A stretch of 64,000 bases of DNA from an uncultured Gammaproteobacteria bacterium. GTDB taxonomy: Bacteria > Pseudomonadota > Gammaproteobacteria > Eutrophobiales > Eutrophobiaceae. The notes beneath the pieces were generated by a model. That model saw nothing but the letters and a program-made list of their open reading frames with translations. It ran no database searches and was not told the DNA's origin. The stretch covers positions 2,812,042 through 2,876,041 of the forward strand of contig OY282354.1 in the NCBI GenBank assembly GCA_958295485.1, given 5' to 3'. Positions within the stretch are counted from its first letter, which is position 1, and the number at the start of each line of letters is the position of its first letter. Shown one piece after another: positions 45,085 through 63,965 of this stretch. The position numbers and the translations under genes are program-made.

Positions 45085-45135
45085 AAAGGGTTGGGTGAGA
45101 GCTGCGGGTTATAACCCGTCTTGAAATAAAGCGCC

Positions 45136-46476: not shown

Positions 46477-46524
46477 CAAGGGGGATTCGCGCCGGGGTCG
46501 AGGGGGTTGTCGCGGCGCCCCCTT

Positions 46525-47562: not shown

Positions 47563-47785
47563 TTTTCCACTATAACGTTATTGCAGGGACTGGTTTCAAA
47601 CCCGTCCCTGCTGGAAGGAGGACGTCGTAAAAGCCCCGGCGGCGCCACCGACGCTGACCCACTGGGACAAGCTCCGTGGTTGCCCCTGCGGGATTAATGT
47701 CTCCGGTCATTTCGGAGACAGTTTACTTAATTCTTCGTAATTAAGTAAACTGTCCCCCCCAATTGGAATTATTCAAGGGTATAAC

Positions 47786-49078: not shown

Positions 49079-49115
49079 GAATGCCGCAAAAGCGCATTAT
49101 ATTTCCCCCTCCCCT

Positions 49116-49919: not shown

Positions 49920-50811
49920 GCGACTGAATCAATTAGAGAATTCCCTCAATTCAGGAAGATTTTGTTTCACTGCGGAATTGGTGCCGCCGTTATCGACCGA
50001 ACCGGACAGGATACTTGAACAGGTAGATTCGATTAAAGGTCGAGTTGAAGCGATCAACGTCACCGACGCCGCCGCTGCCAAGACCACCATGTCCAGTTGT
50101 GCCGCGGCCGCCCTGCTCGCCCTCAATAATATAGAACCGGTCCTTCAACTTACTTGCCGGGACCGCAATCGTATCGCTTTATGCGCGGATTTAATCGGCT
50201 CAGCCGCATTCGGCATATGCAACCTGTTGCTGTTAACCGGGGATGACCCGGCTAACGGCGACCAACCTGACGCCAAGGCAGTCCATGATATTAACAGCGC
50301 CAGCTTGACCGCCCTTGTCAGGGATATGGGGGAGAAAGGAATATTGCCGAATGGCCGCCAAATTGATTCGCCACCGCATTTTTATATCGGTTCGGCAGAC
50401 GTGCCGCAAAGGTTCGATAATAAAGGGGTCCCTCCTGCCATAATAAAAAAAATAGACGCGGGCGCGCGTTTTATACAGACTCAGTTGTGTTATGACATTG
50501 ACCTGATCGAAGCATACATTGCTGCATTGGGTGATTGGGGCATCCTGGACAAGGTGAAAGTGCTTATCGGCCTGGGGCCTGTGGCGTCCGTCCGGTCGGC
50601 CCTATGGATGAAAGATAATCTTTGGGGCGTGGCAATCCCTGATTCTGTCCTGCAACGTTTGCAAGACAGTACTGATCCGAAACAGGAGGGCAGACGGATT
50701 TGCATCGAATTGATTGAGAACATGCAAAAGATAGACGGCATAGCCGGGGCGCACCTGATGGCGCCGGGCCAATCTATTCCATCGATTGCGGCTTTATTAT
50801 CAGAACTTTGA
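49912..50811 (+). CDS. methylenetetrahydrofolate reductase family protein (MetF-like)
   Basis: FCFTAELVPP and LQLTCRDRN...LLLLTGDDP blocks parallel the FEFFPP / HLTC / ALRGDPP blocks of MetF. Confidence 0.65.
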   Translation: MVKRLNQLENSLNSGRFCFTAELVPPLSTEPDRILEQVDSIKGRVEAINVTDAAAAKTTMSSCAAAALLALNNIEPVLQLTCRDRNRIALCADLIGSAAFGICNLLLLTGDDPANGDQPDAKAVHDINSASLTALVRDMGEKGILPNGRQIDSPPHFYIGSADVPQRFDNKGVPPAIIKKIDAGARFIQTQLCYDIDLIEAYIAALGDWGILDKVKVLIGLGPVASVRSALWMKDNLWGVAIPDSVLQRLQDSTDPKQEGRRICIELIENMQKIDGIAGAHLMAPGQSIPSIAALLSEL

Positions 50812-51034
50812 CAACCCCCCCCTCCAGGCAGGAAAGACTGGCCCCTTTGGGACGGGATACTGACATGGACTTCGACTTTGACACCTCCTCCAGGCAAGAA
50901 GGGCTGGTCCTGTGGTTGTTCTGCCCCCGGTACGCGCCGGCGCGCTCAGGGCTGGCGCGGGGCCTGCCCCTGCCTGGTCGGGGGGCTTGCAAGGTTCTGT
51001 ACCCCATCCTGTTTTAGCTGTATAATCTCGCTCC

Positions 51035-51541
51035 ATGAAAAAACTCGGTGTAATTATAGTCGTGCTGTGCCTGTCAATCACACCGGCGCTCGCTGACTTT
51101 AACGATGGCGTTTATGCTTATTCGATTGGTGAATATCGCAGGGCGTATAACACCATGCGGTCACTGGCTGAAACTTCCGACCATGGCCTGGCTCAATACT
51201 ATTTGGCCATGATGTACTTCAGGGGAAATGGGGCAGAGCAAAGTTACGAAGAGGCGGCGAAATGGTTTCGAAAAGCGGCGGAACAACGAGTCAAACAGGC
51301 CCAATACCAGTTAGGGGAGTTTTATATGAACGGCAGGGGTCTGCCAAGAGATTATGAGTACGCCTATGCCTGGTATCGGGTGGGCGCTGAACACAAGCAT
51401 AAAAAATCAATAGACGCGTTAGATGCGGCAAAATCGAACCTTTCGGATGAGGAACTGAAAGAAGCAGAGAAACTCTCGCGGGAATTTATAAAGAAATTCG
51501 GCCCGTTGCCTGACCAACCTGAAAAAAACATCGGCCCTTAA
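51035..51541 (+). CDS. Sel1-repeat (TPR-like) secreted protein
   Basis: Signal peptide, then repeated A.YYLA.MYF.G.G...EA.KWFRKAAEQ Sel1 modules. Confidence 0.8.
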   Translation: MKKLGVIIVVLCLSITPALADFNDGVYAYSIGEYRRAYNTMRSLAETSDHGLAQYYLAMMYFRGNGAEQSYEEAAKWFRKAAEQRVKQAQYQLGEFYMNGRGLPRDYEYAYAWYRVGAEHKHKKSIDALDAAKSNLSDEELKEAEKLSREFIKKFGPLPDQPEKNIGP

Positions 51542-51855
51542 TCCGGGAGAAACGGAGAGTATCGTGCCGTCAACCGGGAGGATTTGGGGGCTGTTTTTCC
51601 GTTCCGCGCAAAGTCTCTCCAAAACAGCCCCCAAATCCTCTCTCAGCCCGGTGGCTTTACAAGCATGAGCTTGCCTTGGCAAACGCGGCCTTTTCCGGAA
51701 AGTGGGAAATCCGGGAGAAATAGAGAATATCGTGCCGTCAACCGGGGGGATTTGCGGGCTGTTTTTCCGTTCCGCGCAAAGTCTCTCCAAAACAGCCCGC
51801 AAATCCCCCCTCGGCCCGGTCGGCTTTACAAACGTGGTCTTGCCTTGGTCAAACT
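51541..51855. repeat. two tandem about 168-bp repeat units, each containing an 18-bp-stem hairpin (GGATTTGGGGGCTGTTTT...AAAACAGCCCCCAAATCC)
   Basis: Unit 1 is 51541-51708 and unit 2 is 51709 to about 51855. The hairpins are at 51580-51638 and about 51748-51806. Unit 2 carries a compensatory G/C to C/G change in the stem. Confidence 0.8.
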
Positions 51856-51870
51856 ATCAGGGTAAATGCA

Positions 51871-52497
51871 TCAAAAATCAAAGACCTGGCCCCTTGCGCT
51901 TTGAAGATCTTCAGGCCGATCAATATCACGCCGCCTGACTAATTCATACGACTTTAATTTCAATTGCGCAACCCTCTCCCGGGTTTTTTCCAAAACCCTG
52001 TCTGTTCCCCACTCGATATTGATGAATAGTTGTCGATATGATTTTGTCAGTCCAATTAAATAATATCCGCCGTCATAAGCCGGACCTAAAACGACATCAC
52101 AGCCGTTTATTAATTTTTCCAAGGCAAGTTCAAGGTCAAACTCGCTCAATTCAATGCAGTCACTCCCGATGAGCAATACACCGTTATAACTTCGCAAGGC
52201 CTGCTCAATGGCAAAACACATGCGTTCTCCTAAATCACCGCCGGCCTGGGTTTTAAGCGTAATCGAAAAATTTTCAGCATGGGCGGCCAATACTTGATGC
52301 TCAGTGGTAGGCGTACACCATAACTCTATATGCTTGATGGACGACCGTTTGGCGGTTTCAATCGTCTGTTTTAATAATTCAGTATGGATTTCAACCGCCC
52401 CGGCCTCACCTGTTATCGGTATAAGGCGGGTTTTTACCTTTCCCGGAATGGGTGTCCTGGTAAATATAAGCAATACCACCTCTTTTTTAACCCGCAT
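51871..52497 (-). CDS. DUF2064-type glycosyltransferase-A-fold protein (TIGR04282-like)
   Basis: VVLLIFTRTPIPGKVKTRL N-terminus recalled from the DUF2064 family. Paired with the downstream GT2. Confidence 0.55.
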   Translation of the reverse strand: MRVKKEVVLLIFTRTPIPGKVKTRLIPITGEAGAVEIHTELLKQTIETAKRSSIKHIELWCTPTTEHQVLAAHAENFSITLKTQAGGDLGERMCFAIEQALRSYNGVLLIGSDCIELSEFDLELALEKLINGCDVVLGPAYDGGYYLIGLTKSYRQLFINIEWGTDRVLEKTRERVAQLKLKSYELVRRRDIDRPEDLQSARGQVFDF

Positions 52498-52602
52498 ATA
52501 GGGTACGCCCCGGTTTTGCAGGGATTAAATTCGACGTGGAAAGAAGTCGGTTGCTGTCATATGTCCGGCCTCTGTGTGGGGTGTATTTGCGAGATATGCG
52601 GG

Positions 52603-53277
52603 TTAATCATACTGATCGGCCAAAACCCGCGGGTCAAACCCGATGGCATAGCATAATCTTAATTTCCACATCGTCAGGATTGTCCTGATTATTCCATGCT
52701 TTTCCCATCGGCGGGATGAGCTGGTGACCGTTTTATCAACGCAAACAGGCGGAGAAATTCTTTTAAGCCTTGACGTCAAGTCTATGTCTTCCATTAATGG
52801 AATATCTGCATATCCATCGACTTCCCGAAAAATACGCTGGCCGACAAAAACAGCCTGGTCGCCCGTGGCGATGCCGGTGATGCGGGAACGGATGTTCATG
52901 AGCCTTTCGATACACCTGTACATCGGGTGTTCACCTGACAACTTGATATTAAACCGTCCCCAGGCGTCTCCTGAGATAGGCGGATTATCCAGTATCTTAT
53001 CAAAATCACTATCTAACAAAGTATCGGCATGAAGAAAAACATAAACGTCTCCGGTAGCGATTTCCGCGCCATAATTCATCTGCCTGGCCCGGCCCGGCCC
53101 GCATTTTAAAACATGATCTACATGGTCTGCCGCTATCCCGCGCGTATCGTCAATACTGCCGCCATCCACAAGGATGACCTCATGGCCCCTGCCGCGCGCG
53201 GCCTGAAGGCGCTCCAGGGTTTTGCTTATGTAACCCGCTTCATTCAGGGCGGGTATTATGACCGAGTACTTTTGCAT
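52603..53277 (-). CDS. GT2-family glycosyltransferase
   Basis: YSVIIPALNEAGYISKTLERL, ILVDGGSIDDT and DAD (DxD) motifs. Confidence 0.75.
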   Translation of the reverse strand: MQKYSVIIPALNEAGYISKTLERLQAARGRGHEVILVDGGSIDDTRGIAADHVDHVLKCGPGRARQMNYGAEIATGDVYVFLHADTLLDSDFDKILDNPPISGDAWGRFNIKLSGEHPMYRCIERLMNIRSRITGIATGDQAVFVGQRIFREVDGYADIPLMEDIDLTSRLKRISPPVCVDKTVTSSSRRWEKHGIIRTILTMWKLRLCYAIGFDPRVLADQYD

Positions 53278-53439
53278 AAGGATAATGAACGGCTGGTTTA
53301 ATATGACATATAGTCAAGCCGCCTCGAAAGTTTACCTGCTTGATGCGATTTTGTCCCATGGCTGAGGGCTGCTATCCCACGGGCAGCGTTCCGGTTTAGC
53401 GCATTATAAGACAAACCCGGGGTCAAGACCCATGAGGCA

Positions 53440-53580
53440 AGGACAGCGGTTCCCGCTAACAGTGGGTTTGGGGGCTGTTTTGGAGTGACTAACGTCAGGG
53501 ATGAGCATGGGATGGGCTATGGAACGGAAAAGCAGCCACCAAACCCGCTTTCGACGAACAGCGGGAACTCTTGGGGTAAG
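53440..53580. repeat. third, diverged copy of the hairpin element (GGGTTTGGGGGCTGTTTT...AAAAGCAGCCACCAAACCC) within a long imperfect palindrome
   Basis: Seen in sequence. The flanking arms CAGCGGTTCCCGCT / AGCGGGAACTC are also partly complementary. About 150 bp upstream of tRNA-Arg. Confidence 0.6.
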
Positions 53581-53731
53581 GACAGATATTCCCTATCGGC
53601 CAAGTCCGCAGGGGCAATGAAGCAATCTCCTGCCTTTCCGGCTTCGCCGATAAGGTATTGATGCCAACGATATATCCCTGTATTGTTGGATGATGTTTTC
53701 AAGATTGTCTACAGATAGCCTTTATAGCTAC

Positions 53732-53808
53732 GCCCTGATAGCTCAGATGGATAGAGCGTCCGCCTCCTAAGCGGAAGGTCAGAGGTTCGAATCCTCTTCA
53801 GGGCGCCA
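53732..53808 (+). tRNA. tRNA-Arg (anticodon CCU)
   Basis: GCCCTGATAGCTCAGATGGATAGAGCGTCCGCCTCCTAAGCGGAAGGTCAGAGGTTCGAATCCTCTTCAGGGCGCCA folds as a cloverleaf with anticodon loop CUCCUAA. Confidence 0.9.
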
Positions 53809-53969
53809 TTTACCACCCCTTTACACTCCCATCCTCTCGTGATAAACTCTTGTAAGTGGTTATTTTGACTGATATTATGTCTCTCATACGCTATTATTCA
53901 TTTCTAATCGTTATCAGACACTCTCATTTTTAGCGTGGGGAAAAACGTGGGAAAAATGAGAGTTGAGCC

Positions 53970-54107
53970 ATGAAAAAAGCCATCACCGCCGCCGAAGCGA
54001 AATCCATCACGAATCCCAGCTCTTATTATGCCGGCGAGACCCTGTACCTGTCTATTGCGCCCGGCGGCTCGAAATCCTGGGTGCAGCGCCTCACTATTTG
54101 TTCTTAA
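53970..54107 (+). pseudogene. N-terminal 45-codon remnant of a P4-type tyrosine integrase (arm-binding DUF4102-like domain)
   Basis: It translates to MKKAITAAEAKSITNPSSYYAGETLYLSIAPGGSKSWVQRLTICS*. The pattern (K..Y.L.DG.GLYL.V.P.GSK.W..R) is the start of tRNA-associated integrases. It lies 160 bp 3' of tRNA-Arg in an AT-rich stretch. Confidence 0.55.
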
Positions 54108-54203
54108 TGTATTTAATATCATCTCCTTGCTTTTATTCCCACGATTTCCCCAACAAGATTTGGATTGATAAAGACGAGTGATTCCAGGGCCTGTACTGAT
54201 ATC

Positions 54204-54983
54204 TTATTCGGTGAACCGTTGCCGCAAATCTTCCAGCATAGCGGCTGAAATTGAAAATCTTTCCTCCAGATAGCGCTCAATTGTTCCGTGATTGTCTTCC
54301 ATATAGTTCAGGGCGCCCAATATATATTCCGCTTTCACGCCCAGCATGGCAAGGACAGAGGCCCTGTCCATCCCGGTATCCTCCCAGCCGTACCTGGCCG
54401 AAGCCTGGGCAACCTGCTGTTCAGGCACAAAACATTTGCCGGAAAGCAGGTAATCTTCAACAACAATTTCCCTGGGTACGCCCAGGGCCGATAGCAGAAG
54501 AGTTGAGCCAAAACCCGTGCGGTCCTTGCCGGCCGAGCAATGAATGAGCATCGCCCCATGCTCAAGCTCCGACAGGTACCGGAACATGCCGCTGAATTCA
54601 TCAACATGGCTTGAAGCAAACTCAACATATATACCACGCATCATGTCGTCTATACACTGTATGGAGATTCTCTTTCCCGGTCCTGGTTTCACATAGGATT
54701 CCATTTGTCCCGGATCGATCGCCAGCTGCATAACCTGAGCGTTATCCGGCAATCGGCTGGGGTCTTTTCGTCTTTCATTTTGCCCCCGGAAATCACAGCA
54801 ATAGACAATATCAAGACCGGAAAGATATTCGATGTCCCTGTCTGTCAGGTCACTCAATTGGCCTGACCGGAATAACCGGTTCCACTTGACCTGCCGCCCG
54901 TCGGTGGTTGGATAACCCCCAAGGTCGCGAAAGTTGACCCCGCCCTCCAGCGGTAATAATCGTTCCGGCATTCGGCTATTCAA
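54204..54983 (-). CDS. protein-tyrosine/dual-specificity phosphatase-like protein (Y_phosphatase3-type)
   Basis: HCSAGKDRTG CX5R P-loop. 259 aa. Confidence 0.75.
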   Translation of the reverse strand: MNSRMPERLLPLEGGVNFRDLGGYPTTDGRQVKWNRLFRSGQLSDLTDRDIEYLSGLDIVYCCDFRGQNERRKDPSRLPDNAQVMQLAIDPGQMESYVKPGPGKRISIQCIDDMMRGIYVEFASSHVDEFSGMFRYLSELEHGAMLIHCSAGKDRTGFGSTLLLSALGVPREIVVEDYLLSGKCFVPEQQVAQASARYGWEDTGMDRASVLAMLGVKAEYILGALNYMEDNHGTIERYLEERFSISAAMLEDLRQRFTE

Positions 54984-55258
54984 CAGATTGCGACCACAAT
55001 TTCCCTGACCACAGATTTCATATCAGGCTCCTGAAATTTAAAACGGCAATCATGGTCTTGCCCCGGGAATATTATCTGAATGTTGGTTTAAAGTGTTTCG
55101 TTGTCGATTCCTTCGGCGCCACCTCCGAGACAACCGCCAGGCGCAGGGGCAGTGGCAATTGCCTGAGACCGTTAATCTGCAGGCGCACTCCTTCAGCGAG
55201 TGTGTAGTATGAATGTTATCCATATTCGTGTCCATGCCACTGGTCATTTGCTCTATTT

Positions 55259-55272
55259 CGTAAACAGGTTTA
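55259..55272. promoter_or_regulatory. candidate TetR operator, palindrome GTAAAC-AG-GTTTAC
   Basis: 14-bp inverted repeat 33 bp upstream of the TetR start. Confidence 0.3.
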
Positions 55273-55304
55273 CACTTAACGAACATTCAGTCAGAAGACT
55301 CTTC

Positions 55305-55886
55305 ATGAACACAACCGCTTCACATTTGATCTCGGTCGCTGCAAAACAGTTTGCCGAAAAGGGTTATTCAGGCGCTTCCATGCGCAGTATTGCCAACGCC
55401 GCCGGGACGACTCAGGCAGCGATATACCACCATTTTTCGAACAAGAACGCTCTCTACCTGGCCGTGCTGGCCAGACATTTTGATGCTAAATCCAGTGACA
55501 TGGCTGATGATCTGGCCCAGGTCAGTGATCCGGAAAAGCGTTTGAAAATCCTGGTTCACCGTTTGCTTGAACTGGTGGAGGAAGATGAACAGTTTCGCCA
55601 GCTCTATTTTCGCGAACTGCTGGAGACTGACGAAGAGCGTTTGCGCGTACTGGCAGACAACGTGTTTGGCGAATTGGCTGTCACCCTGACCGAACTTCTG
55701 AAGGAGCTGGCGCCGCGAATGGACTCTCACCTTATGCTGCTCTCACTCGGCGGCCTGGTTTGCCACCACCTTGAGGCGCGCAAGCTCAGTCCCTTCCTGC
55801 CGGGAGGCAAACGTAAACACCAACAGCTGGATGTGCTGGCTGAACACATTACGGAACTCCTCCTTCACGGAGTACAGCGGTCATGA
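55305..55886 (+). CDS. TetR-family transcriptional regulator
   Basis: LISVAAKQFAEKGYSGASMRSIANAAGTTQAAIYHHF HTH. Start taken at the internal Met of ORF 55200..55886. The stop overlaps the start of the MMPL gene. Confidence 0.85.
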   Translation: MNTTASHLISVAAKQFAEKGYSGASMRSIANAAGTTQAAIYHHFSNKNALYLAVLARHFDAKSSDMADDLAQVSDPEKRLKILVHRLLELVEEDEQFRQLYFRELLETDEERLRVLADNVFGELAVTLTELLKELAPRMDSHLMLLSLGGLVCHHLEARKLSPFLPGGKRKHQQLDVLAEHITELLLHGVQRS

Positions 55887-58324
55887 GGCAGGGAAAAAGC
55901 GACTATCTGCACAAGGCCGATGAGATGTTCGGTCACCTGGGCCTTTGGATGTACGGCCACAAACTCATCGTCCTGCTGTGCGCACTGGGATTACTGAGCA
56001 CCGGTCTTTACTTCGCCGGCAAGACTCGTGCCGACAACGGTCTGGATAGTTTTTTTGATGCGACAGACACTGCCTATAACGCCTATGTAATCTACCAGGA
56101 TGAGTTCGGTTCAGACGAGGTGGCTTATATCCTTTACACGGTTCCCAACAGTCCCTACGGCCCCTTTGACCTGGACGCCATGCAGCGCATAGCGCAACTG
56201 ACCGAGGCCCTGGAATACGAGGTGCCTTTCGTAAGGGACGTAACCAGCCTGAGTAACGTGGAGTTCATCACTGCCGATGGCGATTTCCTTGAGATCCACG
56301 AGTTGGCGCTGGATATGCCGGAGGACCAGGCCGGCCTGCTGGAGCGCGGCCTGGCGATGATGCAAAAGCCCAGTTACCGTGGCGCCATCGTCAACAACGA
56401 GGCCACCCATGGCGCTATCATCCTGGAAATGACTATTTCCATCAACGATCCGCTGGACGAAATAAGACTGGACCCGGAAGGTGGCGACGGGCTGCCCAAC
56501 CTGTATCCGCAGGCGGCCAAACACAAGATCGACGAGATCCTGTCCCGGCCGGAATACACCGGTATTGACTTTTACCTGGGCGGCGATGTCCAGATGAGCA
56601 CGGCCTATAACGAGACCATCACACGTGACACGGCACGGCAAACCCTGTTGACACTGGCCCTGGTCAGTATCATTGCCATGATATGCTTCCGCATGCAGCT
56701 TCTGGGGCTGGCCGGGCCGCTTTCAGTTGTGATTCTCGCCCTGATCCTGACCATAGGCTTCATGGGCCTTGTCGGCTACGAGATGGGGATTCTGTTCCTC
56801 ATTGTGCCCACCTTCCTGACCGCCATCGGTGTTGCGCAGTCGGTACACCTGATCACCGAATTCAACCTGATGCGCGCCCGGGGCCTGGACCGGCGAGAGG
56901 CAGTAAAACAGGCCATGGAACACGTGGCCATGCCCTGCCTCCTGGCGGCATTTACCACGGCGGCAGGGTTCCTGGTCATGGCGACCTCTAAACTGCGCCC
57001 CTTGTCGGAAATAGCCGTGTACCAGAGCGTTGGTGTGATGCTTGCCTTCCTTGCCAGCATCACCGTCATGGTCTGTTACATGTCCATGGGCAAAGACAGA
57101 CCACACAAATCACTCGATCCGTCGGAGAGGAAATCCGGCCTGTTGTATTATTTCCTCCACCGCGTTGCAGCATTGAACCTTAAGCGTCCCTTCGCCATCA
57201 TGGCGGTGTTCGGTGTAATTCTGACAGGTTCCATGATCGGGATCGGCAAACTGCACGTAGGCTTCAACTTCCTGGAGGAATTCAAGCCACATACCCGGTT
57301 CCGGCTGGATACCGACTACATACAAAACGTGATGGGCGGCATGCTTAACGTGGTTTTCATCTACGACAGCGGTAAGGCCGATGGCATCAAGAGCAGCGAG
57401 ATGCTTGCCCACCTTGAAGGGCTCCAGGCCTATGCTGAGCGGTCGACCATTGTCGAAAAGAGCTACTCTGTGGTCGATATTCTCAAGGATATAAACCAGA
57501 GTTTTCACAGTGATGACCCGGCCTACTACCGACTGCCGGAAAGCGGCGAGTTAATCGCACAGTACCTGTTGTTGTATGAGATCTCCGGCGGCGAAGAACT
57601 CAGTGATTTCGTAAGTGGCGACTACCGCCGGACTGCCCTGGAACTGCGAGTGGATATTACCGATTCGAGACATATCAAGGCCTTGATCGACGACCTGGAG
57701 CGCTATATGGCGGCGCACCCTGTATCCGGCGCAGAGATCCGGACCACAGGCATGGGTTTATTATGGGTCAGGTTAGCCAGTTATATCGCCGAGAGCCAGA
57801 TGTGGTGCTACGGGCTTGCCTTCATCATAATCGCCCTGGTAATGTGCCTGGCTTTCCGTTCAGTGAAAGTTGGTCTGCTTGTCATGATTCCCAACCTGTT
57901 TCCTGCTGTTCTGGTTCTGGGCTTTATGGGCTTGAACGGCATGCAACTGGACTATTTCAAGCTGATGCTGGCGACGGTAGCCATCGGTATCGCGGTTGAC
58001 GACACGGTGCACATTTCCACCCGCATACGAAAAGAGTTCCACCGTTCCGGCAACTACGAGGAAGCCATTCGGACCAGCCTGTTGAGCACGGGCCGGGCTC
58101 TTGTCATTACCACTATCATCCTTTCACTGTCCTTCCTTGTATACACGGTTTCCGATATGGCAATACTGGCAGATTTCGGGATACTGCTATCTGCCACCAT
58201 GGTTTCGGCATTGGTCGCCGACCTGTTCCTGTTACCTTGCCTGGTGCTGGTGCTGAAGCCCTTTGGGTCGGAATACGAACCGGCCACTGTCAGTGATCCA
58301 GCGCCCGCAGCCCACACATTATGA
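55883..58324 (+). CDS. RND-superfamily exporter of the MMPL/HpnN-like type
   Basis: 813 aa with two 6-TM bundles, each followed by a sterol-sensing-domain-like region, and two large periplasmic loops. Confidence 0.8.
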   Translation: MRQGKSDYLHKADEMFGHLGLWMYGHKLIVLLCALGLLSTGLYFAGKTRADNGLDSFFDATDTAYNAYVIYQDEFGSDEVAYILYTVPNSPYGPFDLDAMQRIAQLTEALEYEVPFVRDVTSLSNVEFITADGDFLEIHELALDMPEDQAGLLERGLAMMQKPSYRGAIVNNEATHGAIILEMTISINDPLDEIRLDPEGGDGLPNLYPQAAKHKIDEILSRPEYTGIDFYLGGDVQMSTAYNETITRDTARQTLLTLALVSIIAMICFRMQLLGLAGPLSVVILALILTIGFMGLVGYEMGILFLIVPTFLTAIGVAQSVHLITEFNLMRARGLDRREAVKQAMEHVAMPCLLAAFTTAAGFLVMATSKLRPLSEIAVYQSVGVMLAFLASITVMVCYMSMGKDRPHKSLDPSERKSGLLYYFLHRVAALNLKRPFAIMAVFGVILTGSMIGIGKLHVGFNFLEEFKPHTRFRLDTDYIQNVMGGMLNVVFIYDSGKADGIKSSEMLAHLEGLQAYAERSTIVEKSYSVVDILKDINQSFHSDDPAYYRLPESGELIAQYLLLYEISGGEELSDFVSGDYRRTALELRVDITDSRHIKALIDDLERYMAAHPVSGAEIRTTGMGLLWVRLASYIAESQMWCYGLAFIIIALVMCLAFRSVKVGLLVMIPNLFPAVLVLGFMGLNGMQLDYFKLMLATVAIGIAVDDTVHISTRIRKEFHRSGNYEEAIRTSLLSTGRALVITTIILSLSFLVYTVSDMAILADFGILLSATMVSALVADLFLLPCLVLVLKPFGSEYEPATVSDPAPAAHTL

Positions 58325-58333
58325 GAGATCGTC

Positions 58334-59131
58334 ATGTTTGCAAAGAAATACATGTATTTGATTACCCTGGCCATGAGCTCCCCGGCGCTTGCGCAGGCGG
58401 TCCATGATCGGGACGCCGTGGAAAAAGGCATCGCCATCGCCGCCGAAGCAGATCGCCGCGACAGCGGTTACGTGGACAGCGAGGAGTCCTTCACCATGGT
58501 GCTGCGGGACAGCAAGGGGCGCGAGCGTTTTCGTACCCTGCGCACGAAAACCCTGGAACGCACTGATGACGGCGACTGGAGCCTGACCATCTTCGACGAA
58601 CCGGCGGACGTTAAAGGCACCGCCATGCTCACCTACAGCCACGGCCTGGAGCCTGACGACCAGTGGCTTTACCTGCCGGCCTTAAAACGCGTGAAACGTA
58701 TTTCCTCCAAAAATCGCTCCGGGCCGTTCATGGGCAGCGAGTTTGCCTTTGAGGATTTGAGCGACTTCGAGTTGGAAAAATACAGCTATCGATACCTGCG
58801 TGATGAGCCGTGTGGCGAGCACAGCTGTTTTGTCTCCGAGTGGGTGCCCGCCTATGAGCACTCCGGTTACACCCGGATCGAAGTCTGGCACGACCGGGAG
58901 GAATACCGTGAGCAAAAAATAGAGTTCTACGATAAAGTCGGCAAGCACCTGAAAACACTGGTGCTTAACGACTACTCACTTTACCGGGAACGCTTCTGGC
59001 GCCCCCTGAAGATGGAGATGACCAACCACAAGACAGGCAAGGCCACCCTGCTCCACTTCAACAATATTGAGTTGGGAGCAGGTCTGACCGAGCGTGAGTT
59101 CGACCAGAACTCCCTCAGGCGTGCCAAGTAA
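58334..59131 (+). CDS. LolA-like outer-membrane lipoprotein-sorting-fold protein (DUF1329-type)
   Basis: Signal peptide. The size and the blocks ...LYLPALKRVKRISS...GSEFAFEDL... are recalled from DUF1329 proteins that partner MMPL exporters. Confidence 0.6.
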   Translation: MFAKKYMYLITLAMSSPALAQAVHDRDAVEKGIAIAAEADRRDSGYVDSEESFTMVLRDSKGRERFRTLRTKTLERTDDGDWSLTIFDEPADVKGTAMLTYSHGLEPDDQWLYLPALKRVKRISSKNRSGPFMGSEFAFEDLSDFELEKYSYRYLRDEPCGEHSCFVSEWVPAYEHSGYTRIEVWHDREEYREQKIEFYDKVGKHLKTLVLNDYSLYRERFWRPLKMEMTNHKTGKATLLHFNNIELGAGLTEREFDQNSLRRAK

Positions 59132-60350
59132 CCGTTTCGGTACCGGCGCCAGGCTATCCGGCGCTATCCTGGCCGGTATCCTGGCTACACCCGCCGCCAT
59201 TGCAATGGATCCGGAGAAAATGCAGTGGTCCGGCCACGTGGGCGGGGAGTACCGGTATTTCACGGATGCCGGCGCCGGCGGGGCACGCTACCAGCACAAT
59301 TTTTCCCTTGTCGCCGAACCGGAGCTTTACTATCCCGTCCGCGCCTCCGGCGACAGCCTGCGTCTCACGGCGTTCCTGCGCCTGGACGAGCACGATGATG
59401 AGCGCTCCCATGGTGACATACGCGAAATGAAGTGGCACAAGGTGGCGGACCGCTGGGAATTGACCCTGGGAGTCGACCGGATATTCTGGGGTGTCACCGA
59501 GACCATTCACCTGGTAAATATCATAAACCAGCAGGACTTTGTGGAGAACCCGGATGGCGAGGACCTGCTCGGGCAACCCATGATACGCCTCGAGCTTGTG
59601 CGGGACTGGGGAACACTGGGTTTATTTGTCCTGCCCTACTTCCGTGAACGTTCCTATCCCGGCACAGAAGGACGCCCGGGATCCGCCCTCGTGGTGAACA
59701 CCGACAATCCCGTTTATGAGTCCGGCACGGAACAATGGCACACGGACTTTGCCCTGCGCTGGAGCCACTATATCGGCAACTGGGACCTGGGCGCTTCCTA
59801 TTTCTACGGCACCAGCCGCGAGCCGCGCTTCGACCCGATGTTCTCAAGTATAACGAAGCAAGGCGTAACAACCCTGCGGCCTGTCTACGATATCATTCAC
59901 CAGGCGGGTGTTGACGTGCAGGGCACCTTCGATGCGTGGTTGTGGAAGCTGGAGGCCATCTACCGGGATGGGCAGGACGATGCGTTTTTCGCCGGCGCCG
60001 TCGGACTGGAATACACCTTCTTCGATATCTCCGGCCACGGTATCGATATCGGCCTGGTCACCGAGTATCTCTACGATGAGCGGACATTTTTCATCAGTAC
60101 CGATAATGATCTCAGCCTGGGCATGAGACTGACATTGAACGATATCGATTCGACCGAATTTCTGGCCGCCGTGGTGCAGGACCTGGACAATCAGTCACGC
60201 TATTTCTTTGTGGAGGCCAGCCGGCGTATCGGGGATTCCTTCAAACTCTCCGTGGAAGCCCGCGGCATTAACAACGTCGCTGAGGGTGACCCCCTGCAAT
60301 TCTATGACGGCGACAATTTTATCCAGGTGGAGCTGGCGTACTACTTCTGA
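59094..60350 (+). CDS. outer-membrane beta-barrel protein (DUF1302-like) partnering the MMPL exporter
   Basis: Signal peptide (AILAGILATPAAIA) and alternating-hydrophobic beta-strand pattern. The C-terminal ...IQVELAYYF ends in an aromatic residue. Confidence 0.5.
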   Translation: MSSTRTPSGVPSNRFGTGARLSGAILAGILATPAAIAMDPEKMQWSGHVGGEYRYFTDAGAGGARYQHNFSLVAEPELYYPVRASGDSLRLTAFLRLDEHDDERSHGDIREMKWHKVADRWELTLGVDRIFWGVTETIHLVNIINQQDFVENPDGEDLLGQPMIRLELVRDWGTLGLFVLPYFRERSYPGTEGRPGSALVVNTDNPVYESGTEQWHTDFALRWSHYIGNWDLGASYFYGTSREPRFDPMFSSITKQGVTTLRPVYDIIHQAGVDVQGTFDAWLWKLEAIYRDGQDDAFFAGAVGLEYTFFDISGHGIDIGLVTEYLYDERTFFISTDNDLSLGMRLTLNDIDSTEFLAAVVQDLDNQSRYFFVEASRRIGDSFKLSVEARGINNVAEGDPLQFYDGDNFIQVELAYYF

Positions 60351-60351
60351 A

Positions 60352-60564
60352 ATTATGCCTCCGGTTGGCTCTCAGTGTTCTTACAATGTCGTCAACGCCG
60401 AAATTTCTCTAAGTAGTGCCGACGAAAGGTGGAAATTTAAAATTTGGGCAAAAAATCTGTTTGAAGAAGACTATTCCATATTTACCAACACAGGTCAGTT
60501 TGGTGATCTGGTGGCATTTGCACCACCACGCGTTGCGGGTGCCAGAGTAGAATTTAATTTCTAA
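60352..60564 (+). pseudogene. C-terminal about 70-aa remnant of a TonB-dependent receptor
   Basis: It translates to MPPVGSQCSYNVVNAEISLSSADERWKFKIWAKNLFEEDYSIFTNTGQFGDLVAFAPPRVAGARVEFNF*. This is the canonical last beta-strands and terminal Phe of TBDRs, with no upstream barrel or plug. Confidence 0.55.
60354..60376. repeat. 23-bp direct repeat, left copy (TATGCCTCCGGTTGGCTCTCAGT)
   Basis: 22/23 identical to 63080-63102. Confidence 0.7.
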
Positions 60565-60584
60565 TATTCTTACGACATCTTCAT

Positions 60585-61679
60585 CTATTCATCCATTTTT
60601 AATATAGGTTTGATTGTTTTACCGGAATGGGTGTCGGCAACCGCTTCGTTGATCTGCTCCAACGAATAAAAACCCGCGAGCTTGTCCATAGGGAATGAAC
60701 CGTCAAGATACATTTCTATCAATTGCGGAATAATTGCAACTGGATCGCAATCACCATTTACCACACCACGAATGACTTTACCGCTTATCAGTGGTAGCAC
60801 ATTTAGTGTAACCTGCGGTTCCTTCGAGGCACCAAGCAAGGTCAATGTTCCACGTGTTTTTAAAGCGTCAGCCGCAGTAGAGATAAGCGCCGGTACACCG
60901 CTGGTATCAACACCTTGATCAATCCCGCCCAGTTCTGCCAGTTCGCCGGCAAGATCCTGGTCCGCAGTATTAATAGAATCACTGGCTCCAAGCTCACGTG
61001 CCAAAGCAAGACGGCTCTCAACTCGGTCCACTGCAATAATTTTGCCTGCATTCATGGCTTTCGCAGCCATCAAGGCCGCCATACCGACGGCACCGGCGCC
61101 AAATACAGCAAGTGTCGTGTCCGGCCCTGGTCTTAATACATTCATCACTGTACCGGCACCTGTTAAATAACCACAGCCTAGTGGCCCCATGAGCTCCAGT
61201 GGTACGTCCTTACGGATCTTGATGGCATTCCGCGCCTGCGCTAGAGAGTAAGTTGCAAAGGAAGACTGGGAAAAAAAACCACCGCCAATGGCTTCTCCAC
61301 TTTCGGCATGCAATGTGGGTGAACCATCCAGACGACGCCCCATGAAATTTAAAGGCATGTACTGCTCACAATAGGCTGGGTGTGAATCGCTACAGGGAGC
61401 ACAGGCCCCGCAGGTATTGAATGTAAGAACGACGTGATCACCCGGCTCATAGCCGCTGACATTGGCCCCCACTTTTTCGACTACACCTGCACCTTCATGT
61501 CCAAGTACAAAGGGAAGCGGCAAAGGCATGATCTGGTCGACGATTGACAAATCCGTATGACAAATTCCAGTGGCGACGATCTGCACCAATAATTCATCGT
61601 CATTTGGGTCTGCCAGATCTATTCCTTCTACACTAAATTGACCTCCTGCCTCCCGTGCAACAGCAGCTTTTATTTTCAT
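60585..61679 (-). CDS. zinc-dependent alcohol dehydrogenase (aryl/benzyl-alcohol dehydrogenase-like MDR)
   Basis: GICHTDLS and GHEGAGVVEKVG zinc-site motifs. Structural zinc cysteines CGACAPC. GAGAVG Rossmann motif. Confidence 0.85.
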   Translation of the reverse strand: MKIKAAVAREAGGQFSVEGIDLADPNDDELLVQIVATGICHTDLSIVDQIMPLPLPFVLGHEGAGVVEKVGANVSGYEPGDHVVLTFNTCGACAPCSDSHPAYCEQYMPLNFMGRRLDGSPTLHAESGEAIGGGFFSQSSFATYSLAQARNAIKIRKDVPLELMGPLGCGYLTGAGTVMNVLRPGPDTTLAVFGAGAVGMAALMAAKAMNAGKIIAVDRVESRLALARELGASDSINTADQDLAGELAELGGIDQGVDTSGVPALISTAADALKTRGTLTLLGASKEPQVTLNVLPLISGKVIRGVVNGDCDPVAIIPQLIEMYLDGSFPMDKLAGFYSLEQINEAVADTHSGKTIKPILKMDE

Positions 61680-61705
61680 ATTACTTCCCCCTGAGTCCGT
61701 CTTGC

Positions 61706-62953
61706 TTAATTACGTTCGCTTATTATCATTGGTAGTGTTTCAAGACCCCGGAAGGCCATGGGCGGTGAAAAATCCAACTCATCATTTACCAAACTAAATT
61801 CAAAACGCTCGATAAAGGCAGGAAAAAATTCACTCAATACCATCTTTGCAAGGCGAAGACCAATACAGTGATGCATGCCCGGTGCAAATACCAGGTTTTG
61901 GCCCTGATCCCGTTCAAAATTAAATTCATGAGGCTCAGCAAACACAGACGGATCCTGGTTTGCTGCACTTTGAAAAAGCAACACAAATTGTCCTTTCTTT
62001 ATTATATTTCCATCCCACTCAAAATCTTCCGCGACAACCCGAGACATGAAGGTCGACATCTGTGCGCGCCGTTGAATCTCCATTATCGCATCTATGTCAA
62101 TATCGTCGGATTGTCGTAACTTGTCGATAGATTCAGGCTGACGAGCCAGTTCAGCCACACCCAATGCCATGGTATTCACAGTCGTGTCATGACCGGCAAT
62201 CAACACAATATGGCAAACGCCAAGCATCTCTTCCTCTGTTAACTTATCTCCCGCATCAACCGCCAATACCAATTCGGAAATAAAATCGCCGGTGGGATTT
62301 TTGCGTTTTTCCTCAAACTTGGGTTTGAATAATTCGTTCAACTCATTGATGACGCCGTCAACCTTGAATAATTGCTCAAGCGGTACATTGATGTTACCGA
62401 TGGTATTCAAGTCGATTGACCAGCGTTGCATCTCGTTAATCAATGTATCGTCAAAGTCACAGACCTTCAGGATCATGCGAGCCGGAATGATGCGTGCCAC
62501 GTTTTCAACAAATTCAACCGGGCCATCTATTTCTGCAACCGCATCCAGCGCCTCCTTAATATAGCGCTGCACATCAGGACGAATCGCTTCTACCACTGCG
62601 CGCCCAAATGCCCTTTGAATCAAGCGACGTATTCTCTGGTGCTCGTCACCGTCCATGTTCAGCAGCCAGGTCTTCGGCGTCTGCATCACAGCAGGAATCT
62701 GCGTCCTCTCTTCATCGCTCAGGTGTGCGGTGGCAAAAAACGGCAACCTCTCATTGGATAGTGGGAGTTTTCCCGAATAACCCATGAGAACTTCGCAATG
62801 ACCCGTCACCATCCAGGCCTGGTTGATCTCACTCCAGTATATCGGGCTGGTCTTTCGTAAATCGTCCAGGCGTTCTGTCAGGGAACTACCCAGGCTCTGT
62901 ATGTCCAGTGGGAAATCCAGCTCGCTGGCAACACTTTGACTAGGACCGGTCAT
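61706..62953 (-). CDS. cytochrome P450 monooxygenase
   Basis: I-helix AGHDTT, EXXR, and heme-ligand loop FAPGMHHCIGLRLA. 415 aa. Confidence 0.9.
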   Translation of the reverse strand: MTGPSQSVASELDFPLDIQSLGSSLTERLDDLRKTSPIYWSEINQAWMVTGHCEVLMGYSGKLPLSNERLPFFATAHLSDEERTQIPAVMQTPKTWLLNMDGDEHQRIRRLIQRAFGRAVVEAIRPDVQRYIKEALDAVAEIDGPVEFVENVARIIPARMILKVCDFDDTLINEMQRWSIDLNTIGNINVPLEQLFKVDGVINELNELFKPKFEEKRKNPTGDFISELVLAVDAGDKLTEEEMLGVCHIVLIAGHDTTVNTMALGVAELARQPESIDKLRQSDDIDIDAIMEIQRRAQMSTFMSRVVAEDFEWDGNIIKKGQFVLLFQSAANQDPSVFAEPHEFNFERDQGQNLVFAPGMHHCIGLRLAKMVLSEFFPAFIERFEFSLVNDELDFSPPMAFRGLETLPMIISERN

Positions 62954-63079
62954 GTCTAAAACTCCTTGCGGGATGTTTAGGAACGAATAATTTTAACCCA
63001 TATTATAACAAACGCTATACAAAAAAGTTATCACCAGCCCGGATGTTGTGCAAGTAACTTATAAGGCGCAGTAATTGGG

Positions 63080-63102
63080 TATGCCTCCGGTTGGCTCCCA
63101 GT
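63080..63102. repeat. 23-bp direct repeat, right copy (TATGCCTCCGGTTGGCTCCCAGT)
   Basis: Matches 60354-60376. Here it is followed by only 8 further sense codons before a stop. Confidence 0.7.
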
Positions 63103-63194
63103 ACGTTCGTTGAGTTTAACGGGCAGGCGTTCAAGGCCGCGCAACGACATGGCAGGAGAGAATACAAAGTCCAGACTATCCCGTATCCGGTCAG

Positions 63195-63965
63195 TCAAAG
63201 CTGCCAACCCCCATCGACGGCCAGGTTCACACCCGATATGTACCTGCCTTTTTCTGATGCCAGGAAGACTACCGCATTGGCGATGTCTTCAGGTGTACCC
63301 AGGTTACCCAGGGGGACTTGCGCGGTAATCGCCTTGATGGCCTTCTCGTCCATCTGGCCGTCCATACCTCTTGCCAGTTTTCCTCCTGCCAACCAGCCCG
63401 AACGGATGCTGTTTGCCCGGATGCCATAGCGACCATTTTCCCTGGCCACCACCTCCAGCAGGTTCTCAATGGCTGCCTTGGGCGCGCTGGAGAGCACACT
63501 CTTCGGCAGGTGTCGTGTCGCCTGGGTGGTGGTCACTGCGGTAATACTGCCGCCGCCGGTATCCTTCAATACGGGAAGCGCAGCCTGGATCAGGTTGAAA
63601 CAGGCATGGGTGTCCTGCGTAAAGATGTTTTTCCAGGCTTCCAGACTTGTGGAACCGACAAAATCTATGGGTATTGCCGGACCTGCTGCATACACAACGC
63701 TATGGACGGCGACGTACTTTTCCTTGACCTGCTGCATAAATGAATGGGTGGCAGCCTCATCATGCAAAGCCAGTTGATAGTAGTCCACTGCAATGTCTGA
63801 AGATATACAGGATTGCATTACCTGTCGCGCCCCCTGCTCGTTCAGGTGATAGGTGAACGCCACCGGCGATCCCGACCTCGCAAACGCCTCTACGATTGCC
63901 GCGCCGATCCCCCCGCTACCGCCGGCCACAACCGCAACCCCCTCTTTAAACTCCTTTACACCCAT
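63195..63965 (-). CDS. SDR-family oxidoreductase
   Basis: VAVVAGGSGGIGAAIV Rossmann motif and YAAGPA... catalytic region. 256 aa. Confidence 0.8.
   Translation of the reverse strand: MGVKEFKEGVAVVAGGSGGIGAAIVEAFARSGSPVAFTYHLNEQGARQVMQSCISSDIAVDYYQLALHDEAATHSFMQQVKEKYVAVHSVVYAAGPAIPIDFVGSTSLEAWKNIFTQDTHACFNLIQAALPVLKDTGGGSITAVTTTQATRHLPKSVLSSAPKAAIENLLEVVARENGRYGIRANSIRSGWLAGGKLARGMDGQMDEKAIKAITAQVPLGNLGTPEDIANAVVFLASEKGRYISGVNLAVDGGWQL

What the first reader, a model, noticed from the sequence alone, without database searches (positions are those of the whole stretch)
53732..54107. tRNA-Arg(CCU) followed by a 45-codon integrase N-terminal remnant in an AT-rich patch: decayed genomic-island insertion site
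- **Seen directly:** 160 bp after the tRNA 3' end, a short ORF encodes the typical arm-binding start of P4-like tyrosine integrases (KSITNPSSYYAGETLYLSIAPGGSKSW) and then stops. The intervening DNA is conspicuously AT-rich relative to the surroundings.
- **Established:** tRNA 3' ends are integration hot spots, and truncated integrases mark degraded islands.
- **Inference:** the downstream genes look like accessory cargo. They are a PTP-like phosphatase, the TetR/MMPL/LolA-like/outer-membrane-barrel operon, a receptor remnant and an ADH-P450-SDR set. The island's right end is probably beyond the window.
Basis: partly seen in the sequence, partly recalled or inferred. Interest (0 to 1): 0.55.

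Follow-up and report, generated by a model that had tools for sequence, protein, structure and literature searches.

The report
Dead integrase stub beside tRNA-Arg
An intact tRNA-Arg(CCU) gene is followed by the first 43 codons of a broken P4/IntS-type integrase, an ordinary scar of a mobile element at a recurrent insertion site, now fused to the end of a large gene block that spreads horizontally among related uncultured bacteria.

Summary
tRNA-Arg(CCU) lies at 53732-53808. After a 161-bp spacer, a 45-codon ORF (53970-54107) encodes the N-terminal arm-binding start of a P4/IntS-type tyrosine integrase and nothing more. Full-length relatives (382-464 aa) match it only over their residues 3-58. 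E. coli argW-intS has the same geometry, including a 161-bp spacer.

In nine related species, synteny runs up to this tRNA and breaks at its 3' end. The ancestral neighbour there is pgi. Two relatives carry small inserts bounded by 14-23-nt repeats of the tRNA end, so the site is a genuine hot spot.

The downstream genes are horizontally mobile. They belong to a block longer than 42 kb that is 95-99.9% identical in genomes whose core is only 65-80% identical. In three of those genomes the block is not next to their GT2-tRNA-Arg-pgi locus.

The stub-block junction (54094-98) is a secondary deletion. A sister strain has an IS3-family element there. The block also ends in its own att-like structure, which points the wrong way for cargo of this integrase. 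No tRNA repeat occurs within 42 kb.

Verdict: an ordinary decayed attL. The cargo link is unproven.

The parts
52603..53277 (-). GT2 glycosyltransferase, the last conserved core gene before the tRNA
   Evidence: Pfam Glycos_transf_2. It is adjacent to tRNA-Arg(CCT) in nine related species, with conserved upstream synteny.
53732..53808 (+). Intact tRNA-Arg(CCU) gene, the argW equivalent
   Evidence: ARAGORN. Rfam RF00005, 71.3 bits. The sequence is nearly invariant across relatives.
53786..53808 (+). Presumed att core: the last 23 nt of the tRNA
   Evidence: These exact 23 nt, and the last 16 nt, recur as direct repeats 1.8 and 3.2 kb from the tRNA in L001. A 14/16 copy lies 1.4 kb from the tRNA in L089. 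There is a single copy in the window. That this stretch is the core here is an inference by analogy.
53809..53969 (+). 161-bp AT-rich spacer, interpreted as the attL P' arm with the integrase promoter
   Evidence: - GC 0.385.
- Three promoter-like sites on the + strand.
- 77.5% identical, without gaps, to the spacer of L088.
- Same length as E. coli argW-intS, where attL overlaps the intS promoter (PMC2951348).
53934..53956 (+). Tandem repeat CGTGGGGAAAAA / CGTGGGAAAAA just upstream of the ATG; candidate arm-type integrase-binding sites
   Evidence: Conserved in L087 and L088, and a similar pair precedes the L094 stub. Function is inferred.
53970..54107 (+). Integrase stub: 43 integrase-derived codons (to 54098), then Cys-Ser-stop read from unrelated DNA
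   Evidence: The Phage_int_M and catalytic Phage_integrase domains are absent.
54094..54098 (.). Deletion junction between the integrase stub and the truncated end of the mobile block
   Evidence: Integrase homology to L088 and P0030 ends at 54098. Homology to the block of L087, L090 and L094-L096 begins at 54094-54098.
54094..54203 (-). Phosphatase 3' flank, which is the truncated terminus of the block. It contains inverted tandem repeats (54134-54155) and only about 8 nt of the roughly 40-nt terminal motif.
   Evidence: Five other genomes share ...AACAATAGGTTATTAGTGTATTTCTATTCCCCCTTCCGGCACC and then diverge. The window keeps only ...AACAAATAGTG. Repeats.
54204..54983 (-). Y_phosphatase3-family phosphatase, the first gene of the block
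   Evidence: Pfam PF13350, E 1.6e-63. Cluster members at 90% identity or more occur in at least seven genomes.
55200..55886 (+). TetR-family regulator (likely start at 55305)
   Evidence: Pfam TetR_N. Called as 193 aa in sister genomes.
55883..58324 (+). MMPL/RND-type transporter
   Evidence: Pfam MMPL.
58334..59131 (+). LolA-like protein
   Evidence: Pfam LolA_like, E 7.5e-58.
59094..60350 (+). 418-aa protein with no Pfam match
   Evidence: Conserved within the block in all genomes examined.
60370..60564 (+). C-terminal remnant of a TonB-dependent receptor
   Evidence: tblastn against residues 765-829 of the 829-aa receptor: 29% identity, E 0.003. The remnant ends ...RVEFNF*.
60585..61679 (-). 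Zinc-type alcohol dehydrogenase
   Evidence: Pfam ADH_N and ADH_zinc_N.
61706..62953 (-). Cytochrome P450
   Evidence: Pfam p450.
63195..63965 (-). Short-chain dehydrogenase. The block continues past the end of the window.
   Evidence: Pfam adh_short_C2. An exact protein look-up gave L081-L086.

Best explanation
**What it is.** The locus is the fossil left junction (attL) of an integrative element of the P4/IntS tyrosine-recombinase type. The element used the 3' end of the tRNA-Arg(CCU) gene as its attachment site.

**How it worked.** Integration rebuilt an intact tRNA. It placed the AT-rich arm, which carries the integrase promoter and probable arm-type sites, and then the int gene directly downstream on the same strand.

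**Its present state.** The int gene is now cut after codon 43, so the core-binding and catalytic domains are gone. The stub cannot recombine anything and the junction is frozen.

**The site.** The tRNA site is a recurrent hot spot in this gammaproteobacterial lineage.

**The neighbouring DNA.**
- The DNA fused to the stub is the truncated end of a block longer than 42 kb.
- The block encodes catabolic and transport functions: a phosphatase, TetR-MMPL-LolA-like genes, ADH-P450-SDR, TonB receptors, CoA-transferases and beta-oxidation-like enzymes.
- The block is itself horizontally mobile and carries its own att-like end, inverted relative to the tRNA attL.
- The fusion is a secondary deletion or rearrangement associated with an IS3-family element.
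- The block therefore most likely reached or was joined to this site by a separate event, rather than as canonical cargo of the dead integrase.

**Shown:** the tRNA, the stub's identity, the hot spot, the block's mobility and the secondary junction.
**Inferred:** the arm-site function, the att nature of the block end and the order of events.
For: **tRNA and stub**
- tRNA.
- Stub identity.
- E. coli argW-intS has the same tRNA, strand and 161-bp spacing. There attL overlaps the intS promoter (PMC2951348). The stub is 37% identical to IntS residues 5-43.

**Hot spot**
- Nine relatives keep XdhC...GT2-tRNA-Arg but none of the window's downstream genes.
- pgi is the direct neighbour of the tRNA in L002, L003, L006 and L008.
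- L001 has 23/23-nt and 16/16-nt repeats of the tRNA end around a HipA/HTH islet.
- L089 has a 14/16 repeat after a nucleotidyltransferase pair.

**Block mobility**
- Record ctg49694c has a core only 65-75% identical to the window. It carries the block at 95.7-99.1% identity, 2.5 Mb from its own tRNA-Arg-pgi locus.
- The L008 genome has an empty tRNA site (GT2-tRNA-pgi) but carries the block at 94.8-97.8% identity. Taking ctg49682c and OZ220714.1 as the same chromosome, which rests only on their identical length, the block lies about 0.9 Mb from that site.
- The block continues at 98-99.5% identity to at least 33 kb in three genomes.

**Secondary junction**
- Five genomes share a roughly 40-nt terminus that the window has lost.
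- Sister strain L087 has a 1.2-kb IS3-family element there with no target duplication, and its stub ends at codon 25.
- Divergence between the window and L087 is 1-5.7% in the core, 0.8% over the tRNA and stub, and 0.06% over the block.

**The block's own att-like end**
- In L094 a copy of the motif is followed after 159 bp by a second integrase stub, 51% identical to the window's.
- L095 has two direct copies of the motif flanking a 2.7-kb islet.
- Tandem arm-like repeats flank the window stub in inverted orientation.

**History of the stub**
- The stub differs from L088's by 16 synonymous and 3 non-synonymous codons.
- The breakpoints differ: codon 43 in the window, 25 in L087 and about 54 in L088.
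- This points to a gene that worked until recently and then decayed independently in each lineage.
Against: - No attR copy of the tRNA end was found, and the right end of the block was not reached at 41.8 kb. A single very large island cannot be excluded.
- The position of pgi in the window's own species is unknown. No pgi cluster could be tied to the sister strain's chromosome.
- The arm-type and att-core roles are inferred from geometry and conservation only. The loose repeat pattern is not enriched over the whole window: 22 hits against 15 +/- 4 expected.
- Bulk GC does not distinguish the block.
- The IS ends in L087 were assigned by eye from imperfect inverted repeats. The repeat finder did not report them.
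Confidence: 0.7

Rival explanations
1. One large island. The integrase whose stub remains delivered the whole downstream block into tRNA-Arg. The integrase and nearby island DNA were later deleted, and attR lies more than 42 kb away.
For: - The stub is adjacent to a block that is clearly horizontally acquired.
- pgi, the ancestral neighbour, is missing from the window and from 42 kb of the sister strain. This fits a very large insert between the tRNA and pgi.
- A related integrase stub also accompanies the block in L094.
Against: - In three other genomes the block is not at the GT2-tRNA-Arg-pgi locus.
- No tRNA-end repeat lies within 42 kb.
- The block end facing the stub has an arm-plus-core structure inverted relative to the tRNA attL.
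- The stub and the block show different divergence from the sister strain, 0.8% against 0.06%.
Confidence: 0.22
2. The block is native to this species, which acted as the donor to other genomes. A chromosomal inversion or recombination between IS3 copies simply placed it beside an unrelated small island scar.
For: - The sister strain has an IS3-family element at the junction with no target duplication.
- Bulk GC of the block equals that of the core.
Against: - The block shows gene-level mosaicism in GC3: 0.70-0.74 for MMPL, LolA-like and the 418-aa gene, and 0.43 for ADH, against a core of 0.58 +/- 0.07.
- The block has a discrete terminus shared by five genomes.
- The block is 0.06% divergent from the sister strain while the core is 1-5.7% divergent. 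That indicates recent exchange, not vertical descent.
Confidence: 0.06
3. The 45-codon ORF is a retained, functional mini-protein: a domesticated arm-binding peptide, for example one that represses the attL promoter.
For: The ATG and reading frame are conserved in three lineages, with 16 synonymous against 3 non-synonymous codon changes.
Against: - The C-terminal end differs in every lineage: codon 43, codon 25 followed by IS sequence, and codon 54 followed by an inverted-repeat insert.
- Only 38 of the 83 domain positions are present.
- The synonymous bias is explained equally well by a recently intact full-length gene.
Confidence: 0.02

Closest known systems
E. coli K-12 argW::CPS-53 (KplE1) cryptic prophage with integrase IntS
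   Same: - The same target tRNA, tRNA-Arg(CCU).
- int lies on the same strand and starts exactly 161 bp after the tRNA 3' end.
- IntS has Arm-DNA-bind_3 + Phage_int_M + Phage_integrase.
- The stub aligns to IntS residues 5-43 at 37% identity.
- attL overlaps the int promoter (PMC2951348).
   Different: - IntS is full length and active. Here only 43 codons remain.
- CPS-53 is a 10-kb phage remnant with a defined attR. Here no attR was found, and the neighbouring DNA is a non-phage catabolic block.
- The tRNA sequences are unrelated in detail.
P4-family ('DUF4102'/Arm-DNA-bind_3) integrase genomic islands at tRNA genes, such as the pathogenicity islands at pheV, selC, leuX and asnT in Enterobacteria (from general knowledge)
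   Same: - tRNA 3'-end att core of about 15-25 nt, with int immediately downstream.
- Tandem accretion and decay of islands.
- Truncated int genes that fix the island in place.
   Different: - The host is an uncultured gammaproteobacterium.
- The putative cargo is catabolic, not virulence-related.
- The cargo is not shown to belong to this integrase.
IS3-family (IS407-like ends, recalled from memory) adjacent deletions
   Same: The sister strain L087 has an orfA/orfB IS3-family element (HTH_Tnp_1 + rve) exactly at the junction, without a target duplication.
   Different: The window itself contains no IS at this point. Its junction is a plain deletion with a few nucleotides of microhomology.

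Membership tests
P4/IntS-type tyrosine integrase (Arm-DNA-bind_3 + Phage_int_M + Phage_integrase) | N-terminal arm-type DNA-binding domain (PF13356) | tested here: met
   Present as a fragment only. Profile positions 5-38 of 83 score 18.4 bits, below the gathering score of 27. The sister stub scores 23.2 bits. There are 1298 phmmer hits aligned at N-termini, and 62% identity to P0030.
P4/IntS-type tyrosine integrase (Arm-DNA-bind_3 + Phage_int_M + Phage_integrase) | Central core-binding domain (PF22022) | tested here: not met
   The ORF stops at codon 45. tblastn with seven full-length integrases finds nothing else in the window.
P4/IntS-type tyrosine integrase (Arm-DNA-bind_3 + Phage_int_M + Phage_integrase) | C-terminal catalytic domain (PF00589) with the active-site Tyr | tested here: not met
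   Absent. The ORF is a pseudogene fragment of the family, not a functional member.
tRNA-integrated genomic island | Intact tRNA gene at one boundary, with int next to its 3' end | tested here: met
   The 161-bp spacing and shared strand match argW-intS.
tRNA-integrated genomic island | Synteny break at the tRNA, with empty sites in relatives | tested here: met
   The core is syntenic up to the tRNA in nine species. pgi is directly adjacent in four of them.
tRNA-integrated genomic island | Direct repeat of the tRNA 3' end (attR) at the distal boundary | tested here: not met
   No repeat in the window at up to 3 mismatches, and none up to 41.8 kb from the tRNA in sister strain loci. Untested beyond that. 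Such repeats do exist in L001 and L089.
tRNA-integrated genomic island | Cargo of foreign origin | tested here: met
   The block is 95-99.9% identical in genomes whose core is 65-80% identical. Bulk GC is not atypical, and gene-level GC3 is mosaic.
tRNA-integrated genomic island | Cargo physically belongs to the element of this integrase (canonical attL-int-cargo-attR orientation) | tested here: inconclusive
   The junction is a secondary deletion. The block end has an inverted att-like structure. The block occurs away from the tRNA-Arg-pgi locus in three genomes.

The most novel reading that the evidence does not exclude
The block of more than 42 kb may itself be an integrative element that has recently swept through several genus-level-distinct uncultured Gammaproteobacteria living in the same habitat. 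Its phosphatase end would be an attR-type junction: arm-type repeats plus a roughly 40-nt core ending ...TTCCGGCACC(A). A sister clade of P4/IntS-like integrases would re-use that core to add small defence and toxin-antitoxin islets in tandem. On this reading the window captures a head-to-head fusion of two different att junctions, tRNA-Arg attL and the block's attR.
Probability: 0.3. Interest if true: 0.5.

Novelty: new member of a known kind. Interest (0 to 1): 0.3.

Why it matters
- It marks where the conserved chromosome ends and recently exchanged DNA begins in an uncultured gammaproteobacterial lineage.
- It shows that the argW-type tRNA is used as an integration hot spot well outside the enterics, with the same 161-bp attL geometry.
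- The more useful by-product is the neighbouring catabolic and transport block of more than 42 kb. It is nearly identical in genomes of different genera, so it is a candidate for tracking recent gene flow and its vehicle in that community.
- The stub itself is an ordinary pseudogene.

Tried and rejected
- **Exact protein look-ups.** The window's GT2 and MTHFR proteins are not on record, so the source genome is not in the collection.
- **Word-indexed homologue search with the 45-aa stub.** It returned only two other stubs. The exhaustive phmmer search was needed.
- **PHROGs.** No useful match.
- **Searches for the tRNA-end repeat.** Nothing in the window or in any locus covering the block.
- **Walking along the sister chromosome.** It reached 41.8 kb from the tRNA without finding the right end of the block.
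- **Search for this species' pgi.** No cluster could be tied to the 3,773,739-bp chromosome.
- **Viral contig scan with the full-length integrase P0030.** No result.
- **Plasmid search with the block.** No match. A plasmid search with the tRNA region returned only tRNA hits.
- **Rfam at permissive thresholds.** Around the stub and around the 40-nt motif, nothing beyond the tRNA.
- **tRNA origin of the motif.** No tRNA ending ...CCGGCACCA occurs among the 52 tRNAs in the fetched loci, so this idea stays a lead only.
- **Encoded CCA.** Its presence or absence in the tRNA does not track occupied versus empty sites.
- **Bulk GC and dinucleotide signature.** Neither separates the block from the core.
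- **Inverted-repeat finder on the L087 IS.** It did not report the terminal repeats.

Full report
**1. The observation**

ARAGORN finds tRNA-Arg(CCT) at 53732-53808 on the + strand. Rfam's tRNA model scores 71.3 bits there. A 45-codon ORF follows 161 bp later at 53970-54107 on the same strand. It reads MKKAITAAEAKSITNPSSYYAGETLYLSIAPGGSKSWVQRLTICS.

The spacer has GC 0.385 and the 110 bp after the ORF has GC 0.364, against 0.526 for the whole window. Other intergenic spacers in the window range from 0.336 to 0.637. The AT-richness is therefore real but ordinary for non-coding DNA.

**2. The ORF is an integrase N-terminus**

- Pfam Arm-DNA-bind_3 matches profile positions 5-38 of 83 at 18.4 bits. 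This is below the gathering score, as expected for less than half a domain.
- The word-indexed protein search found only two other stubs.
  - P0002 (36 aa) comes from a sister strain.
  - P0001 (65 aa, 93% identical) comes from a more distant relative. It extends the match to profile position 55 and scores 23.2 bits.
- An exhaustive phmmer search with P0001 against 1.84 billion representatives gave 1298 hits at E<=1e-3, best 3.8e-15 at 53-65% identity. All align query residues 4-58 to their own residues about 3-58.
- Seven full-length hits (382-464 aa) all carry Arm-DNA-bind_3 + Phage_int_M + Phage_integrase.
- The window peptide is 62% identical over 39 residues to the 395-aa P0030, E 6e-13.
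- tblastn with these integrases finds no other integrase fragment in the window.

The gene is therefore cut after codon 43 and lacks the core-binding and catalytic domains.

**3. Closest characterised analogue**

In E. coli K-12, argW (tRNA-Arg CCU) ends at 2466383. intS of the cryptic prophage CPS-53/KplE1 starts at 2466545 on the same strand, which is also a 161-bp spacer. The annotated prophage begins inside the last 15 nt of the tRNA. IntS has the same three-domain architecture, and its residues 5-43 align with the stub at 37% identity. In that system the attL region overlaps the intS promoter (PMC2951348).

By analogy, I read the 161-bp spacer here as the attL arm. Three observations fit this:
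- It holds three promoter-like sites on the + strand.
- It holds a tandem repeat CGTGGGGAAAAA/CGTGGGAAAAA at 53934-53956, just before the ATG.
- It is conserved in length and 77.5% identical in L088.

The binding-site role is an inference.

**4. The tRNA is a hot spot**

A genome scan with the upstream glycosyltransferase returned nine closest species, L001-L009, at 62-75% aa identity.
- All nine have tRNA-Arg(CCT) next to that gene.
- They share the upstream order, or the part of it their loci cover: XdhC, Cys/Met-PLP enzyme, hydrolase, MTHFR, Sel1, DUF2064, GT2.
- None of the window's downstream genes occurs in any of the 80 loci fetched.

On the 3' side of the tRNA, a roughly 540-aa protein identified as phosphoglucose isomerase is directly adjacent in L002, L003, L006 and L008. 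The other relatives differ:
- L001 has 7.6 kb inserted.
- L005 has 1.4 kb inserted.
- L007 and L009 have other genes there.

In L001 the last 23 nt of the tRNA recur exactly 1.8 kb away, flanking a HipA/HTH pair. The last 16 nt recur again 3.2 kb away. In L089 a 14/16 copy lies 1.4 kb from the tRNA, beyond a nucleotidyltransferase pair. Sequence downstream of the tRNA is unrelated among genomes, except in the window, L087 and L088, which share the spacer and stub.

**5. The downstream genes are horizontally mobile**

An exact look-up of the SDR protein at the window's end found near-identical DNA in several complete chromosomes. One of these, the sister strain s13.ptg000014c (L083/L087), has the window's arrangement.

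The pgi search led to record ctg49694c. Its GT2-tRNA-Arg-pgi locus (L089) is only 65-75% identical in DNA to the window's core. The same record nevertheless carries the TetR...SDR block at 95.7-99.1% identity, 2.5 Mb away.

The phosphatase cluster has members in at least seven genomes. One is the L008 genome. Its tRNA site is empty, and it carries the block at 94.8-97.8% identity. I equate ctg49682c with OZ220714.1 because both are 3,813,174 bp long; on that assumption the block lies about 0.9 Mb from the tRNA site. This identity of records was not checked directly.

The block continues well past the window:
- It runs through a TonB receptor, acyl-CoA dehydrogenase, a second P450, three CoA-transferases, aldehyde dehydrogenase, ferredoxin reductase, a luciferase-like oxygenase and enoyl-CoA hydratases.
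- It remains 98-99.5% identical among three genomes to at least 33 kb.
- Similar catabolic genes continue to 41.8 kb from the tRNA in the sister strain, with no tRNA, pgi or tRNA-end repeat.

Bulk GC does not differ across the tRNA (0.530 against 0.526). Gene-level GC3 is mosaic.

**6. The junction is secondary**

After the phosphatase stop codon, L087, L090, L094, L095 and L096 all share about 150 nt. This stretch ends ...AACAATAGGTTATTAGTGTATTTCTATTCCCCCTTCCGGCACC, and the genomes then diverge. The window keeps only ...AACAAATAGTG and then runs into integrase codon 43, so about 35 nt of the block terminus are missing.

In L087 a 1.2-kb IS3-family element (HTH_Tnp_1 + rve) lies between integrase codon 25 and a 26-nt stretch that L094 also has after the motif. 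The flanks, ACCC and GAAA, do not form a target duplication. The IS ends were assigned by eye. Neither allele can be derived from the other, so each lost different DNA from a common ancestor.

Divergence between the window and L087 falls into three zones:
- 1-5.7% per 500 bp across the core.
- 4 differences in about 500 bp over the tRNA and stub.
- 6 differences in 9.9 kb over the block.

**7. The block end looks like an att junction of its own**

- In L094 a diverged copy of the 40-nt motif is followed, after 159 bp, by another integrase stub of 57 codons. That stub is 51% identical to the window's.
- Sequence homologous to the L094 spacer follows the motif in L095 and L096.
- L095 has two direct copies of the motif flanking a 2.7-kb islet.
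- A tandem pair of the same 11-12-nt repeat type lies in the phosphatase flank at 54134-54155, on the opposite strand to the pair at 53934-53956. These are the only tandem pairs of that loose pattern in 64 kb. The pattern itself is not enriched overall: 22 hits against 15 +/- 4 expected.

Read this way, the block end is 'arm + core' and points towards the tRNA attL. That is not the orientation expected if the block were canonical cargo of the tRNA-Arg integrase. This step is inference.

**8. History of the stub**

Against L088 the stub differs at 21 of 129 nt, comprising 16 synonymous and 3 non-synonymous codon changes. The gene is broken at different codons in the three lineages:
- Codon 43 in the window.
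- Codon 25 plus the IS in L087.
- About codon 54 in L088, followed by a piece of about 150 bp bounded by a 17-nt inverted repeat.

This fits an integrase under selection until recently, followed by independent decay. It does not fit a conserved mini-protein.

**9. Verdict**

The finding is a correct reading of an ordinary feature: a dead P4/IntS-type integrase at an argW-type tRNA hot spot.

The 'accessory cargo' inference holds in the sense that the genes are horizontally acquired. It is not shown that this integrase brought them. Several lines point to a separate element joined by an IS-associated deletion or rearrangement:
- The block sits at other locations in other genomes.
- No attR repeat was found within 42 kb.
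- The block's att-like end is inverted.
- The junction is secondary.

One very large island remains possible, at a probability of about 0.2.

Noticed in passing
L094 6690-7064 (record ERZ24894576 ctg49694c): A diverged copy of the block's roughly 40-nt terminal motif is followed after 159 bp by a second P4/IntS-type integrase stub of 57 codons. The stub is 51% identical to the window's. The geometry matches tRNA-Arg, then 161 bp, then int. This suggests the motif is an att core for a sister integrase.
   Followed up: partly
window 53934-53956 (+) and 54134-54155 (-): Two tandem pairs of an 11-12-nt repeat (YGTKGGGRAWA) flank the integrase stub in inverted orientation. They are conserved in L087, L088 and L094. 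They are candidate arm-type integrase-binding sites.
   Followed up: partly
L087 about 10940-12160 (sister strain, ERZ19489113 s13.ptg000014c): An IS3-family element (orfA with HTH_Tnp_1, orfB with rve) sits exactly where the window has integrase codons 26-43. It has no target-site duplication.
   Followed up: partly
window 45000-64000 against L087: Divergence from the sister strain steps sharply. It is 1-5.7% across the core, about 0.8% over the tRNA and stub, and 0.06% over the 9.9-kb block. This indicates a recent exchange or sweep of the block.
   Followed up: yes
L001 4978-8253: Exact 23-nt and 16-nt direct repeats of the tRNA-Arg 3' end bound two small tandem islets. One of them carries a HipA/HTH toxin-antitoxin pair.
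   Followed up: yes
L088 10160-10310: In this relative the integrase stub reaches about codon 54. It is then interrupted by a piece of about 150 bp bounded by a 17-nt perfect inverted repeat, GGTATTGACAAGTTAAC, which looks MITE-like. The contig ends 315 bp later.
   Followed up: no
window 60370-60564 (+): This stretch encodes the C-terminal 65 residues of a TonB-dependent receptor, ending ...RVEFNF*, with no upstream part. It is a gene remnant inside the block.
   Followed up: partly
window 60354-60376 and 63080-63102: A 23-nt direct repeat, TATGCCTCCGGTTGGCTCYCAGT, occurs in two intergenic spacers of the block. One copy follows the 418-aa gene and the other lies between SDR and P450. Its role is unknown.
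   Followed up: no
window 54985-55269: The window and sister strain L083 lack a 660-aa DUF3604 gene that L081, L084 and L094-L096 carry between TetR and the phosphatase. No remnant is detectable.
   Followed up: partly
L082 and L094 (ctg49694c): The block copy in this genome is peppered with strain-specific mobile DNA. A DDE_Tnp_1 IS splits the LolA-like gene and an IS21 element interrupts a P450. A 6.6-kb AbiE/Gp49 toxin-antitoxin islet sits between DUF3604 and the phosphatase, with a 99-nt duplication.
   Followed up: no
L011 about 219-561: In a more distant relative the same glycosyltransferase neighbourhood has tRNA-Ala(CGC) followed by an integrase N-terminus. This looks like another tRNA-integrase pairing beside this gene.
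   Followed up: no
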